From a virus, in IMG/VR virus record IMGVR_UViG_3300019776_000919, positions 64,001 through 128,000 of that record: a stretch of DNA of 64,000 nucleotides, one strand, 5' to 3'. Of this stretch, positions 36,250 to 39,408 are shown piece by piece. Both the position numbers and the translations under genes were made by a program. Below the pieces are notes generated by a model that worked only from the letters and a program-made list of their open reading frames with translations, was not told the origin of the DNA and did no database searches. The stretch's first letter is position 1. Each line of letters begins with the position of its first letter.

Positions 36250-36362
36250 AGAGGTTGATAAGGGTGCTGGCTTCAACGCCACGGTCAATAGAGGAGGGTA
36301 TATTGAACGTGATTGGCCCAGAGGGTAGGCCTTTTATGAAACCAGCACTCCTATCAATCTCT
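36250..36362. ncRNA. stem-closed small RNA candidate
   Basis: ~26-bp imperfect terminal stem AGAGGTTGATAAGGGTGCTGGCTTCA / TGAAACCAGCACTCCTATCAATCTCT. Confidence 0.5.
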
Positions 36363-36493
36363 ACGGGACTTGATAGGGGAATAGTGGTCGCCATTCCGCT
36401 TTTAAATTAGTGCTGTTCCTCAAGTATGCTTTTTATTGCATCGGTGCGGACCTCCTTGGCCGCTCGATTAATGAAGGCATGGTTTCAGGCAAA

Positions 36494-36567
36494 TGGAGCG
36501 GGGTACGAGACTCGAACTCGTTTAGGTAGCTTGGAAGGCTACAGCACAACCCATATGCCAACCCCGC
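36494..36567 (-). tRNA. tRNA-Gly(TCC)
   Basis: Cloverleaf, CTTCCAA loop, discriminator T, CCA. Confidence 0.9.
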
Positions 36568-36571
36568 AAAA

Positions 36572-36682
36572 GGCAGAAGTAGAGAAAGACCGGACGTTGC
36601 TCACATGAATGAGCTGGTTAATTCCTCCGGCATAGACCTGGGGCTAAACACCCCCTGCTTGCCACACATTCTCTACTTTGCC
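36572..36682 (-). ncRNA. stem-closed small RNA candidate
   Basis: GGCAAAGTAGAGAA / TTCTCTACTTCTGCC ends plus internal hairpins. Confidence 0.55.
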
Positions 36683-36774
36683 AAAACTGAATAACGTCAC
36701 CCTTTACATCTTGTCTGTGGGGTGTTCACAATCGGCTTATCCAACAAGTCTCACCAATCGTTACGTCATATTTA

Positions 36775-36850
36775 TGGCTCCCCGACCTGGGCTCGAACCA
36801 GGGACCTACGGATTAACAGTCCGGCGCTCTACCAACTGAGCTATCAGGGA
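36775..36850 (-). tRNA. tRNA-Asn(GTT)
   Basis: Cloverleaf, CTGTTAA loop, CCA. Confidence 0.95.
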
Positions 36851-37027
36851 ATTGTGAAAGTGGTATTTCATATTATACCACAATCAATGAACAGAAGCGG
36901 CAATCTAGTATGCCTATTACTAATCATTATTAGTACTGTACCCTACCTGAACGTTTAGTCGTGCTCCCAATGCTTCACATGGAAATATGCACGGATCAGG
37001 GTGTTACATGTTTACCGGGTCATTGAT

Positions 37028-37128
37028 TGGAGGAGAGACTGGGATTCGAACCCAGGTTTCAATGCCAATTCCTACCTTCGGTTGCTCCCGTGTAGTCCTT
37101 GCGTCCTAAGCCTCTAGACGATCTCTCT
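37028..37128 (-). ncRNA. tRNA-like RNA with expanded, non-canonical anticodon arm
   Basis: Acceptor stem, D arm GTCTAGAGGCTTAGGAC, T arm CTGGG-TTCGAAT-CCCAG and CCA present; ~47 nt between D and T arms with no 7-nt anticodon loop. Confidence 0.65.
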
Positions 37129-37136
37129 TTTTAAAA

Positions 37137-37250
37137 CCTCGTCAAGGTGGAATCAAACCACCATTATGGAGTTGGCATTGCCGTTACGAACAATCGTCGT
37201 GTTTGGCACGTCCTAGTGCTCCATTGTAATGCCATTATACTATCGACGAG
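37137..37250 (-). ncRNA. tRNA-like RNA (Gly-like body) with ~40-nt insert in the anticodon loop
   Basis: TCGTCGA/TTGACGA acceptor, D arm TAGTATAATGGCATTAC, ATGGAG/CTCCAT stem, T arm GGTGG-TTTGATT-CCACC; no CCA. Confidence 0.6.
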
Positions 37251-37276
37251 TAACATCCGGTCAGCTACTCCGGAGG

Positions 37277-37366
37277 TTGAAATAGTTAGAAGCTTATTCC
37301 ACGAGCCGTTTATGGTCACGGTGCAAGAATGAACTTCGCTCTGAATACAGCTTCTAACTATTTCAA
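37277..37366. ncRNA. stem-closed small RNA candidate
   Basis: Perfect 18-bp TTGAAATAGTTAGAAGCT / AGCTTCTAACTATTTCAA plus 5 further pairs. Confidence 0.55.
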
Positions 37367-37376
37367 TTGGCAAAGC

Positions 37377-37508
37377 TCACATACCGTTACCAACAAAGTA
37401 GAACCAAAGGTCCGTGTCATGGTTTTTGCAAATGTCTGCGTGGAGCATGGCCCAGTCCAAGTTCAGACGTGATTGTGGTGATGCGTAGACGTTCAAAAGG
37501 GAAAGCAT
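37377..37508 (-). CDS. 43-aa small protein (not in the ORF track)
   Basis: AGGAG RBS, MLSLLNVYASPQSRLNLDWAMLHADICKNHDTDLWFYFVGNGM. Confidence 0.45.
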   Translation of the reverse strand: MLSLLNVYASPQSRLNLDWAMLHADICKNHDTDLWFYFVGNGM

Positions 37509-37519
37509 GTGAACTCCTA

Positions 37520-37727
37520 ACTGTATGAAAGACAAGTCAAGCAATACCTTATCCAAGTGGCCTTATTGAGACTTTTCCAGTAAGAGGGACTCTCCTGGTA
37601 CGGTAGTCAAAAGGGGACTCAAACAAGTGCCGAAGGATTTACCCTGGGAGCCAAAATCACTTTCTTCACTCAAGTTTACCGCGAATAGACTTGATCTATT
37701 AGAACAAAGACTTGTCTTTAATACAGT
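37520..37727. ncRNA. stem-closed RNA candidate (~208 nt)
   Basis: 18/19-bp terminal inverted repeat ACTGTATGAAAGACAAGTC / GACTTGTCTTTAATACAGT. Confidence 0.55.
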
Positions 37728-37740
37728 CAAGGTGGATTGG

Positions 37741-37914
37741 AAATTACGCAAAAGGTGGTGAACCTCAGTCATCAATTTATAGTTGCGACCTATTGTTGCG
37801 TCTGGGATTAATAACCCGCTGTGTTTCGTGGCCACAAAGAGCACAGTTGAGAGTTACATGATCAGGTTCAGCCAACATTGAATTCTTCAGGTTCACCACC
37901 TTTTGCGCAAATTT
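37741..37914 (-). ncRNA. stem-closed RNA candidate (~174 nt)
   Basis: ~24-bp terminal stem including CGCAAAAGGTGGTGAACCT / AGGTTCACCACCTTTTGCG. Confidence 0.6.
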
Positions 37915-37988
37915 AAGGTGCCCCTCCTTTGAGGCACGGTACTCTTACAAAGCAAGGCTCCTTGCGAACAAGGATCTTGGGAGGGGCA

Positions 37989-38220
37989 TCTGAACTAGAA
38001 GGAAACTCCTAGTTCAGAACTTCGGTTCAGGCTGCGAGAGCCTGGACATAGCTGCTGTCATTGGCAGTTACTTGTTTACCTACATGTTTAACGAGCATAC
38101 AGGCTGGCTCGTGTTGTAGTCTAAGATACTAATCTGTCAATCGAATGCCTAGTCACCCCCATTGAACAGCTTAATGGTGGAGGTGCCCGGAATCGAACCG
38201 GGGTCTTGCCAGTTGTTCTC
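37989..38220 (-). ncRNA. ssrA: circularly permuted (two-piece) tmRNA
   Basis: Acceptor piece ...GACCCCGGTTCGATTCCGGGCACCTCCACCA ends at 38175; 14-nt spacer; coding piece starts GGGGGTG at 38160 (G3.U70); tag ANDSSYVQALAA* at 38065-38027. Outer boundaries approximate. Confidence 0.9.
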
Positions 38221-38335
38221 TCTTTCTTTCAGATGAGCGAACTCATCACACAACAATTCTTTTAAAGGTCCAACTTCTACCTTTTTACTACTACATAACC
38301 GCAGGTGATACCTCTAACACCCTCGCTATGTTTAG

Positions 38336-38623
38336 TTAACCCTTCAGATTTTCATCTTTGGGCTTGATCCATTCCAATCTGAGAAAATTGGTGTAATCAC
38401 TGGGATCGTAACGGTCGTAGTACAAACACTGAGTGTGAATCCAGTGAGCTGTAATACGTACGTCTTCCGGCTTAGCATCAGGCCAACGTTCTTTAGCTTT
38501 AGCCAAAAGGCCTGCTAAGTCAAGCTGCTCGACATAATAGCCGGTTTCGATCCAAAATTCAGTCTCAGTGTCATCAGGCCAGAAGTCGACAATTTCTGTA
38601 CCCTTGCGAGTTGTTTTGCCCAT
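38336..38623 (-). CDS. hypothetical protein
   Basis: TAATG coupling with the upstream gene. Confidence 0.65.
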   Translation of the reverse strand: MGKTTRKGTEIVDFWPDDTETEFWIETGYYVEQLDLAGLLAKAKERWPDAKPEDVRITAHWIHTQCLYYDRYDPSDYTNFLRLEWIKPKDENLKG

Positions 38624-39093
38624 TATGAAAACTCGTGGGCCACAAGATCCCAAGTACCTTTACCGTAGCCCACTGCCCCATGACCAAGGACACCTTCACC
38701 GTTGAGTCTGAGTCGAAGTAATCCTTTCGGACCCTTGATTGCGTTGTTCACGGAAAAGTAATGCTCTTCACTGGAGTACCATGCCCAAGGGCCGACCCAG
38801 GGTAGCGGATCTCGCTCCCAGGGAGGTATTTTGTTTTCTCGAACCATGATGATGTTCATCATTTGTTCAAAAGTTAAATCCGGCCAGGGATGACCTTCGG
38901 TATGGATACTACCCGTCTTCAACAATTTAACCCAGTCATCCAAGTCATTAATACCCTTGTCAGGGTACACTCGGAGTTTGAAGGTCCAACCAGCTGAAGA
39001 CTTTCCAATGTGAAGTGTTTGCGGCGGGTCGAATCGACCGCAACATTCACAAGGTTTACCAGCTTTTGTTGCAAGATAGAAATTGGTTCCCAT
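38623..39093 (-). CDS. conserved-looking phage protein
   Basis: GGAGG RBS; MGTNFYL...C.CCGR...LHIGKSSAGW.F...EFS pattern. Confidence 0.7.
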   Translation of the reverse strand: MGTNFYLATKAGKPCECCGRFDPPQTLHIGKSSAGWTFKLRVYPDKGINDLDDWVKLLKTGSIHTEGHPWPDLTFEQMMNIIMVRENKIPPWERDPLPWVGPWAWYSSEEHYFSVNNAIKGPKGLLRLRLNGEGVLGHGAVGYGKGTWDLVAHEFS

Positions 39094-39119
39094 TACGCCC
39101 TCCGTAATAGAAGTTATTC

Positions 39120-39275
39120 GGGTGGTTAAGCAGGGATTCGAACCCCGGTACAGTCACAAGCAAATGTGTTAGCCGAACTTGTACGCCTCATGGAGGAGGA
39201 CCGTCATAGTTTGGTTACTGGCCAAAGAGGCTACTTTGCTGTTGTCTGTGTTTTGCCGTATTAAACTACTTAACC
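39120..39275 (-). ncRNA. tRNA-like RNA with ~100-nt structured arm in place of the anticodon arm
   Basis: GGTTAAG/CTTAACC acceptor, D arm TAGTTTAATACGGCAAAAC, T arm CGGGG-TTCGAAT-CCCTG; insert contains nested ACAG/CTGT, AGCAAA/TTTGCT and TAGCC/GGCTA stems. Confidence 0.7.
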
Positions 39276-39285
39276 GAAACTTTTT

Positions 39286-39408
39286 GCACCCATAGATCAA
39301 GGCTTGATTACTCCGCATAGGCTGCGGTTTTCTTAGTCATTCACTGTCGGTGTCACCCATCCCAGGGCCAATTCCGGGATTGATAATCTAGCCTTGATCT
39401 ATGGGCAC
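39286..39408 (-). ncRNA. stem-closed small RNA candidate
   Basis: GTGCCCATAGATCAAGGCT / AGCCTTGATCTATGGGTGC with G.U pairs on the minus strand, two internal hairpins. Confidence 0.6.

What the first reader, a model, noticed from the sequence alone, without database searches (positions are those of the whole stretch)
36250..39408. Array of small RNA-like units each closed by a long terminal stem, packed among tRNAs
Seen: sequence-unrelated units closed by 11-26-bp stems at 36250-36362, 36426-36480, 36572-36682, 37277-37366, 37520-37727, 37741-37914, 37916-37991 and 39286-39408. Several lie within a few to ~15 nt of each other or of a tRNA or tmRNA end, and most have internal hairpins. They are too long-looped to be terminators and have no convincing ORFs. 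Inference: a polycistronic ncRNA cassette processed along with the tRNAs, with possible roles as decoys for defence or regulatory proteins, or as 6S-, SRP- or Y-like RNAs.
Basis: partly seen in the sequence, partly recalled or inferred. Interest (0 to 1): 0.72.

Follow-up and report, generated by a model that had tools for sequence, protein, structure and literature searches.

The report
Stem-clamped RNAs in phage tRNA island
An uncultured 170-kb phage packs at least six unrelated, strongly folded, gene-free RNA-like modules, each shut by an 18-27-base-pair end helix, between its tRNA and tmRNA genes. They look like real small RNAs cut out together with the tRNAs, but they match no known RNA family, have no relatives in any database searched, and their job is unknown.

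Summary
Six of the eight listed units (A 36250-36362, C 36572-36682, D 37277-37366, E 37516-37731, F 37741-37914, H 39286-39408) are closed by long helices and fold far better than shuffled sequence (z -4.0 to -8.1). Such helices are absent from shuffles of the region. Their imperfect positions are G.U on the tRNA (minus) strand 17 times against 5, which argues for RNA rather than DNA palindromes. Unit B folds only on the opposite strand, and unit G is the 3' part of the permuted tmRNA. The units tile a 1.8-kb ORF-poor stretch with tRNAs at gaps of 1-30 nt.

They are single-copy, lack target duplications (so not MITEs) and hit no Rfam family (6S, SRP, Y RNA and RNase P included). They have no look-alike in 50,697 phage genomes, IMG/VR, JGI metagenomes or the nearest relatives. 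Conservation and covariation are therefore untestable.

Best reading (about 0.5): end-clamped stable small RNAs released from a tRNA-punctuated precursor. The nearest known analogues are T4 rnaC/rnaD. Their function is unknown and a decoy role is speculative. The phage also encodes a retron-type reverse transcriptase, but 94 kb away.

This scan has noted stem-closed orphan RNAs in other phage tRNA arrays before.

The parts
36250..36362 (-). Unit A: 113 nt, 26-position closing helix, two inner hairpins
   Evidence: I2, -50.3 kcal/mol, z -8.1; a covariance model finds only itself
36572..36682 (-). Unit C: 111 nt, 14+4-pair closing helix, three-way interior; 4 nt upstream of tRNA-Gly(UCC)
   Evidence: I15, z -4.0; minus strand 6.9 kcal/mol more stable than plus
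37277..37366 (-). Unit D: 90 nt, perfect 18-bp closing helix
   Evidence: I5, z -6.4
37516..37731 (-). Unit E: about 210 nt, 19-23-position closing helix, small 5' hairpins followed by an 80-nt irregular hairpin
   Evidence: (I4), -64 kcal/mol, z -4.2
37741..37914 (-). Unit F: 174 nt, 25-27-position closing helix followed by CCA; branched interior
   Evidence: I1, z -5.7; (3' flank CCAAUCCAC)
39286..39408 (-). Unit H: 123 nt, 25-pair closing helix whose outer pairs are G.U on the minus strand only; 10 nt upstream of a tRNA-shaped RNA
   Evidence: I3, -59.3 kcal/mol, z -7.5; minus strand 9.8 kcal/mol more stable than plus; a covariance model finds only itself
36881..37029 (-). Weak unit C2: 149 nt, 10-bp closing helix, fills the gap between a tRNA-like RNA and tRNA-Asn
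   Evidence: I17, z -1.8
37373..37516 (-). Weak unit D2: 144 nt, 13-pair closing helix with 4 G.U pairs on the minus strand; interior poorly structured
   Evidence: z -0.5
36683..36774 (-). 92-nt spacer element with a 7-bp closing helix
   Evidence: z -2.4
36163..36226 (-). 64-nt element closed by a perfect 11-bp G+C-rich helix at the distal end of the island
   Evidence: I13, z -2.6
36426..36480 (+).
   Evidence: minus z -1.3; plus z -3.8
37913..37994 (-).
   Evidence: tmRNA 38267-37936; RF00023 local match 38104-37921; terminator-like hairpin 37937-37918
36494..36567 (-). Context: tRNA-Gly(UCC)
36775..36850 (-). Context: tRNA-Asn(GUU)
37031..37250 (-). Context: two tRNA-shaped RNAs with insertions (Rfam tRNA 34.5 bits at 37031-37128; tRNA-Gly(GCC) with a 40-nt insert at 37137-37250)
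37936..38267 (-). Context: circularly permuted tmRNA, tag ANDSSYVQALAA
   Evidence: RF04321, 81.5 bits
39124..39275 (-). Context: tRNA-shaped RNA with a large insert (acceptor stem and T arm intact)
   Evidence: I20; T-loop motif at 39143
39660..39867 (-). Context: tRNA-Ser(GCU) and tRNA-Ser(UGA) at the upstream edge of the island

Best explanation
The units are genes for small, stable, non-coding phage RNAs, transcribed on the minus strand in one or a few long precursors together with the tRNAs, tRNA-shaped RNAs and the permuted tmRNA.

Inferred steps:
- Excision of the flanking tRNAs by host RNase P and RNase Z or exonucleases (tRNA punctuation) frees the units next to tRNAs.
- Where units abut one another (F-E-D2-D), host RNase III is the likely separating enzyme, cutting in the 18-27-bp terminal helices.
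- The terminal helix then pairs both ends of each RNA. This insulates its fold from neighbours and shields it from 3' exonucleases and from 5'-end-dependent RNase E.

The interiors are unrelated to one another, so each RNA probably has its own partner. Protein binding or decoy roles are plausible but purely conjectural.

Shown: the structures, their excess over chance, the strand signal, the tiling, the lack of ORF support, and single-copy status. Inferred: transcription, processing route, stability and function.
For: - Six units fold at z -4.0 to -8.1 with the closing helix kept in the centroid.
- Long-loop inverted repeats number 4 against 0.1 expected, and 0 of 300 shuffles reach 4.
- Genome-wide, such helices lie almost only beside tRNAs. 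Two more sit next to tRNA-Arg and tRNA-Leu outside the window (z -5.4 and -4.8).
- Non-Watson-Crick stem positions are G.U on the minus strand 17 times against 5 on the plus strand, with balanced composition (p 0.009).
- Elements abut tRNAs and each other at 1-30 nt, and called elements cover 1514 of the 1773 nt between 36163 and 37935.
- ORFs in the stretch cross unit boundaries, and the longest of them (93 aa) has no Pfam or PHROG match.
- T4 has two stable RNAs of unknown role in its tRNA cluster (PMC3014915).
- A distant relative of this phage carries one nested-helix element downstream of its tRNA-Gly/tRNA-Thr pair (about 400 nt away, beyond two small ORFs) (z -4.1).
Against: - There is no expression data.
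- No homologue exists anywhere, so there is no conservation or covariation: blastn against 50,697 phages; the neighbouring protein's best relative is 44% identical among 5.8 billion protein clusters; IMG/VR and JGI metagenome scans were empty; covariance models of A and H find only themselves.
- The nearest relatives (54% helicase identity) lack the array.
- MFE favours the plus strand slightly for D, D2 and F.
- Fixed 120-nt windows rank the island only moderately among structured places of the genome (4 of the top 32).
- The phage has no RNase III of its own, so that step depends on an unknown host.
Confidence: 0.5

Rival explanations
1. The helices are only processing or insulating spacers. 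They would be RNase III stalks, like those flanking 16S and 23S rRNA, that separate the tRNAs, tRNA-like RNAs and tmRNA. The enclosed sequence would be discarded and have no function of its own.
For: Helices of 18-27 bp are the right length for RNase III (established knowledge of rRNA operon processing). Units sit directly against tRNA ends. Interiors are unrelated and unconserved.
Against: Phage tRNA clusters, including T4's and this phage's own Tyr-Pro pair, manage with spacers of a few nt. Interiors of 54-170 nt carry well-formed hairpins and account for part of the z-scores. Four units follow one another with no tRNA between them.
Confidence: 0.2
2. The units are templates of the phage's retron-type reverse transcriptase. 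The terminal helices would act as a1/a2 repeats of msr-msd-like RNAs and give rise to several msDNA-like products.
For: The genome encodes a retron-clade RT (PADLOC RT_III-A 3e-63, Pfam RVT_1 1e-23) that is conserved in both relatives. Retron ncRNAs are closed by long inverted repeats (established knowledge). Unit E has small 5' hairpins followed by a long 3' hairpin. A G directly follows the 5' arm in D and F.
Against: The RT lies about 94 kb away, whereas known retron ncRNAs adjoin their RT. In the relative G001 the RT module is flanked by its own structured non-coding stretches (z -3.4 each). That relative keeps the RT but not the array. One RT is unlikely to recognise 6-8 unrelated msr folds. 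No consistent priming-G context was seen, and there is no Rfam msr match.
Confidence: 0.04
3. DNA-level elements: miniature inverted-repeat transposable elements or other palindromic DNA sites (recombination, replication or packaging).
For: Terminal inverted repeats of 18-27 bp. The genome has two large AT-rich palindromes elsewhere.
Against: Every unit is single-copy. No flanking target duplications beyond AAAA. The arms differ between units. The G.U bias on one strand is not expected for DNA sites. All units sit in a stable-RNA island on the tRNA strand.
Confidence: 0.04
4. Some units are extremely diverged members of known RNA classes (6S, SRP/4.5S, Y RNA, miniature RNase P RNA, ribozymes) that covariance models can no longer recognise.
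For: All these classes pair their 5' and 3' ends in a terminal helix. This scan has reported miniature RNase P RNAs in other phage tRNA clusters (e1-371790 and others, unchecked leads).
Against: No Rfam 15 match at E<=10 in search spaces of 674-4001 nt apart from chance-level hits. RF00010 finds nothing in the whole genome at E<=10. No TROVE/Ro60 gene. No T-loop motif in any unit.
Confidence: 0.07
5. Non-functional sequence whose predicted structure arises by chance or through local duplication-inversion events.
For: No conservation can be shown. Weak members (B, C2, D2) are near shuffle expectation.
Against: 0 of 300 shuffles reach the observed number of long helices. z-scores reach -8. The strand-specific G.U bias holds. 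A compact 91%-coding phage genome keeps 1.8 kb without supported genes.
Confidence: 0.1

Closest known systems
Phage T4 stable RNAs species 1 and 2 (rnaC, rnaD)
   Same: Small non-coding RNAs of unknown function encoded inside a phage tRNA cluster on the tRNA strand, a few nt from a tRNA (PMC3014915).
   Different: No sequence similarity; T4 is in the collection searched. Folded the same way, rnaC shows a tRNA-type T arm and a short terminal pairing (z -4.6), and rnaD is barely structured (z -0.8). Neither has an 18-27-bp terminal helix. T4 has two such RNAs, here there are six or more.
rRNA-operon processing stalks cut by RNase III, with tRNAs in the same precursor
   Same: A structured RNA enclosed by a long helix formed from its flanks, co-transcribed with tRNAs (established knowledge).
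   Different: The enclosed RNAs here are 54-170 nt and unrelated to rRNA. Cleavage is untested, and the phage has no RNase III gene.
tRNA punctuation of polycistronic transcripts (animal mitochondria; engineered tRNA-guide RNA arrays)
   Same: tRNAs flank other RNAs at gaps of a few nt, so RNase P and RNase Z define the neighbours' ends (for the spacing; the mechanism is from established knowledge).
   Different: Four units (F, E, D2, D) follow one another without an intervening tRNA.
Retron msr-msd non-coding RNAs
   Same: RNAs of 90-250 nt closed by long terminal inverted repeats. A retron-clade RT is encoded by the same phage.
   Different: Not adjacent to the RT (94 kb away), many unrelated units, and no Rfam msr match.
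Orphan structured RNAs in phage tRNA arrays noted earlier in this scan (e1-5812928, e1-5786791, e1-5710100)
   Same: Unassigned RNAs closed by perfect 18-22-bp stems and wedged between phage tRNA genes (AI notes, not checked here).
   Different: Those are single, larger (250-308 nt) RNAs reported as conserved. Here there are many small, unrelated, unconserved units in tandem, and no shared sequence was found.

Membership tests
T4-type stable RNAs of phage tRNA clusters (rnaC/rnaD) | Encoded within a phage tRNA cluster on the tRNA strand, without an ORF | tested here: met
T4-type stable RNAs of phage tRNA clusters (rnaC/rnaD) | Sequence or fold homology to rnaC or rnaD | tested here: not met
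   No blastn match in the phage collection that holds T4. rnaC and rnaD folds lack the long terminal helix. The units carry no T-loop motif.
T4-type stable RNAs of phage tRNA clusters (rnaC/rnaD) | Accumulates as a discrete stable RNA during infection | not testable with these tools
   No transcript data; uncultured phage
   No such match at E<=10
Y RNA / YrlA | Ro60 (TROVE) partner gene in the genome | tested here: not met
   PF05731 finds nothing in the complete phage genome, and the controls respond. A host Ro60 cannot be excluded.
Miniature phage RNase P RNA (lead from earlier scan notes) | Match to bacterial type A RNase P RNA catalytic core | tested here: not met
   RF00010 gives no match at E<=10 in the genome, and none in focused scans
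Retron msr-msd ncRNA | Terminal a1/a2 inverted repeats closing the RNA | tested here: met
Retron msr-msd ncRNA | Located next to its retron RT gene | tested here: not met
   RT at genome 6001-7227, units at genome 100250-103408
Retron msr-msd ncRNA | Priming G at the inner end of a1 and production of msDNA | tested here: inconclusive
   A G follows the 5' arm in D and F but not in A, C, E or H. msDNA is not testable.
MITE | Multiple copies in the genome | tested here: not met
   Only chance-level 11-16-nt matches; covariance models find only themselves
MITE | Target-site duplications flanking the inverted repeats | tested here: not met
RNase III processing stalk | About two turns of nearly uninterrupted double-stranded RNA formed by the flanks | tested here: met
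   A 26, E 23, F 27 and H 26 positions; D 18 perfect
RNase III processing stalk | Cleavage by RNase III | not testable with these tools
   Needs an in vitro or in vivo assay; no phage RNase III
Intrinsic terminator | Short G+C-rich hairpin with a loop of 3-8 nt followed by a U tract | tested here: not met
   Loops of 54-170 nt. The scan finds a terminator-like site only at 37937-37918, at the tmRNA 3' end.

The most novel reading that the evidence does not exclude
The island is an RNA arsenal. A phage would express, from one tRNA-punctuated operon, six or more unrelated aptamer-like RNAs. Each would be clamped by an RNase III-length helix, alongside three tRNA-scaffolded RNAs, and each would bind and neutralise a different host defence or RNA-metabolism protein. 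This would be a bacterial-virus counterpart of the adenovirus VA and EBV EBER decoy RNAs.
Probability: 0.15. Interest if true: 0.85.

Novelty: new variant of a known kind. Interest (0 to 1): 0.55.

Why it matters
Very few phage non-coding RNAs have a known function. PMC8545117 counts 21 described by 2021, and the two T4 tRNA-cluster RNAs are still unexplained after 50 years (PMC3014915). This locus concentrates many candidate stable RNAs in 2 kb with a simple, recognisable packaging rule: a long terminal helix next to tRNAs. That rule could be used to mine other phages.

Even without the unknown host, the cloned island can be tested in a surrogate bacterium for processing, stability and effects on defence systems. 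The terminal-clamp and tRNA-punctuation layout is also a natural design for expressing several folded RNAs from one transcript.

Tried and rejected
- Rfam 15, whole window at gathering thresholds, then the island and sub-stretches at E<=10: only tRNAs and tmRNA. No 6S, SRP, Y, RNase P, ribozyme, retron msr or riboswitch match.
- blastn, word 11, of the tRNA-free stretches against 50,697 phage genomes: nothing above chance.
- Search for relatives: neighbouring proteins in IMG/VR; tmRNA tag pattern in IMG/VR; phosphoesterase and tmRNA pattern in JGI metagenomes (the single hit, L028, is unrelated); 5.8 billion protein clusters (best 44%). The phage is effectively a singleton.
- The closest records (G001 and G002, 54% helicase identity) lack the array. 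G002 lacks even G001's element.
- Covariance models of A and H: only self-hits.
- MITE reading: rejected.
- Phage-encoded partners: no RNase III, Ro60 or RtcB.
- The 156-aa protein inside the island: confident model but no PDB fold or sequence match, so no functional clue. Its homologue in L003-L006 also sits near tRNAs but without stem-closed units.
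Full report
CONTEXT. The window is bases 64001-128000 of a complete 169,713-bp IMG/VR phage record with direct terminal repeats. The phage encodes multisubunit RNA polymerase beta-like subunits, helicases and a primase. All stable-RNA genes in the window lie on the minus strand. With introns allowed, ARAGORN adds a tRNA-Gly(GCC) with a 40-nt insert at 37137-37250 and two tRNAs with introns of several hundred nt. Rfam adds a tRNA-like match at 37031-37128.

OBSERVATION. 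On the minus strand six units fold much better than dinucleotide shuffles:

| Unit | Coordinates | z-score |
|---|---|---|
| A | 36250-36362 | -8.1 |
| C | 36572-36682 | -4.0 |
| D | 37277-37366 | -6.4 |
| E | 37516-37731 | -4.2 |
| F | 37741-37914 | -5.7 |
| H | 39286-39408 | -7.5 |

The closing helix is retained in every centroid.

- A Watson-Crick-only scan finds 4 helices with arms of at least 15 nt and loops of 40-230 nt in 36150-39450. The mean in 300 shuffles is 0.1 and none reaches 4.
- Across the whole genome, arms of at least 17 nt occur at eight places. Four are here. Two lie beside tRNA-Arg and tRNA-Leu outside the window (z -5.4 and -4.8). Two are large AT-rich palindromes.
- A cruder test with fixed 120-nt windows puts 4 of the 32 most stable windows in this 2% of the genome.

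Two listed units fail.
- B is unstructured on the minus strand (z -1.3) and folds only on the plus strand (z -3.8).
- G lies inside the tmRNA as called by ARAGORN and under a local tmRNA-model match.

Extra weak members are C2, D2, a 92-nt spacer and a 64-nt hairpin.

RNA OR DNA, AND WHICH STRAND. I walked each closing helix inwards and counted the positions that are not Watson-Crick. Seventeen are G.U on the minus strand and five are G.U on the plus strand. Base composition predicts a 1:1 ratio (p 0.009). H extends by two G.U pairs that exist only on the minus strand. MFE favours the minus strand for A, C, E and H, and slightly favours the plus strand for D, D2 and F. This supports selection on an RNA made from the tRNA strand. 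It argues against DNA palindromes.

LAYOUT. In transcription order the island reads:
- tRNA-Ser x2
- a 75-aa ORF
- H
- a tRNA-shaped RNA
- two ORFs (156 and 105 aa)
- permuted tmRNA
- F, E, D2, D
- tRNA-Gly(GCC) with insert
- a tRNA-like RNA
- C2
- tRNA-Asn
- the 92-nt spacer
- C
- tRNA-Gly(UCC)
- (B)
- A
- the 64-nt hairpin

Most gaps between neighbours are 1-30 nt. Called elements cover 1514 of the 1773 nt between 36163 and 37935. ORFs predicted there cross unit boundaries. The longest, 93 aa across E and F, has no Pfam or PHROG match.

WHAT THE UNITS ARE NOT.
- Known RNA families. No Rfam family matches, even at E<=10 in search spaces of 674-4001 nt. This covers 6S, SRP, Y RNA, ribozymes and retron msr. 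A whole-genome search with the bacterial RNase P model also finds nothing. I ran it because earlier notes of this scan report miniature RNase P RNAs in other phage tRNA clusters.
- Y RNA with a phage partner. The phage has no Ro60/TROVE, RNase III or RtcB gene.
- MITEs. The units are single-copy and have no target-site duplications.
- Terminators. The loops are far too long, and the only terminator-like site is at the tmRNA 3' end.

RELATIVES. No comparator was found.
- blastn of the tRNA-free stretches against 50,697 phage genomes gives only chance hits. The full stretch matches other phages only through its tRNAs.
- The 156-aa protein inside the island has its best relative at 44% identity among 5.8 billion protein clusters.
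- IMG/VR and JGI metagenome scans with neighbouring proteins and tmRNA patterns found nothing useful.
- The closest records (54% helicase identity) have tRNAs but no array.
- One of those records carries a single 290-nt nested-helix element downstream of its tRNA-Gly/tRNA-Thr pair (about 400 nt away, beyond two small ORFs) (z -4.1, no Rfam match). The kind of element therefore recurs in the clade, but not the sequences.
- Covariance models built from A and H recover only themselves in the phage, its two relatives and a 494-kb provirus record.

Conservation and covariation, the usual proof of a structured RNA, therefore cannot be assessed.

COMPARISON WITH T4. T4 rnaC and rnaD are annotated stable RNAs at the end of its tRNA cluster, with unknown roles (PMC3014915). 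Folded the same way, rnaC has a tRNA-type T arm and only short terminal pairing (z -4.6), and rnaD is weakly structured (z -0.8). They resemble this phage's tRNA-shaped RNAs more than its helix-clamped units. The kinship is one of genomic niche, not of family.

REVERSE TRANSCRIPTASE LEAD. The phage encodes a retron-clade RT at genome 6001-7227. It is conserved, together with an overlapping upstream ORF, in both relatives. Retron RNAs are also closed by long inverted repeats, so I tested a link.
- The RT is 94 kb from the island.
- In G001 the RT module is flanked by its own structured non-coding stretches (z -3.4 each). The flanks in this phage are weaker.
- The relatives keep the RT without the array.

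I rate this link at about 4%.

MECHANISM. The best-supported reading is a tRNA-punctuated stable-RNA operon. Host RNase P and 3' processing enzymes release the tRNAs and thereby the adjoining units. Helices of 18-27 bp are of RNase III substrate length and could separate the back-to-back units. After release, the paired ends would insulate each fold and protect it from exonucleases. All of these steps are inferred. What the interiors do is unknown, and their diversity suggests separate partners.

VERDICT. This is a real, unusually dense set of orphan structured-RNA candidates. It is a new variant of the known but unexplained class of phage tRNA-cluster small RNAs. The absence of expression and comparative evidence limits confidence.

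Noticed in passing
G000:C1:6001-7894 (outside the window; L025:1105-2998, minus strand): Retron-clade reverse transcriptase (408 aa; PADLOC RT_III-A 3e-63), preceded by an overlapping 242-aa ORF of unknown function. The same RT plus upstream-ORF pair is present in both distant relatives (L026, L027). In G001 it is flanked by structured non-coding stretches (L027:660-990 and 2425-2700, z -3.4 each). A retron-type RT conserved across a clade of large phages with their own multisubunit RNA polymerase is unusual.
   Followed up: partly
window 49627-50139 and G000:C1:38560-38895 (outside the window): Two copies of a large AT-rich palindromic element (arms of 85-151 nt, TATATA centre). They share the arm sequence TTTTTTTGAAAAAAATATACATACTCT, and the fold z-score is about -20. 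They could be origins, divergent promoter hubs or recombination sites.
   Followed up: no
G000:C1:42603-42832 and 56800-56882 (outside the window; L029, L030): Two more helix-closed structured elements beside tRNA-Arg(UCU) and tRNA-Leu(UAA) (minus strand z -5.4 and -4.8). The first lies in a 1.3-kb ORF-free stretch (41728-43013). Neither has an Rfam match.
   Followed up: partly
window 38623-39093 (-): 156-aa protein inside the RNA island. The family has more than 150 metagenomic homologues with invariant M-x-T-N-x-Y and H-I-G-K-S-S-x-G-W motifs and a CxxC pair. The AlphaFold model is confident (pLDDT 89) but has no PDB match by sequence, Foldseek or VIA-align. A homologue in L003-L006 also sits just downstream of tRNA genes.
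   Followed up: partly
window 27732-28280 and 34959-35691 (-): With introns allowed, ARAGORN calls a tRNA-Met with a 472-nt intron and a tRNA with a 655-nt intron. The second carries a PD-(D/E)XK endonuclease ORF (35016-35510; Pfam PDDEXK_5, 3e-21).
   Followed up: no
L022:19296-19580 (IMGVR_UViG_3300025528_000005): The nearest complete relative has one 290-nt nested-helix element (19-nt outer and 19-nt inner stems, z -4.1). It follows two small ORFs downstream of its tRNA-Gly/tRNA-Thr pair and has no Rfam match.
   Followed up: partly
L028 (Ga0209039_10007093) 1528-1869 and 6053-6209: An unrelated 7.2-kb metagenome contig carries a permuted tmRNA (tag ADAPKAFAAAA) sharing the 35-nt T-arm/acceptor with this phage's tmRNA. 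It also has two adjacent tRNAs with a CUA (amber-reading) anticodon.
   Followed up: no
window 37741-37765 / 37889-37913 and G000:C1:63611-63626: The closing helix of unit F shares a perfect 16-nt word with a site just upstream of the window (blastn-short E 0.005). This could be chance or a pairing target.
   Followed up: no
   Followed up: partly
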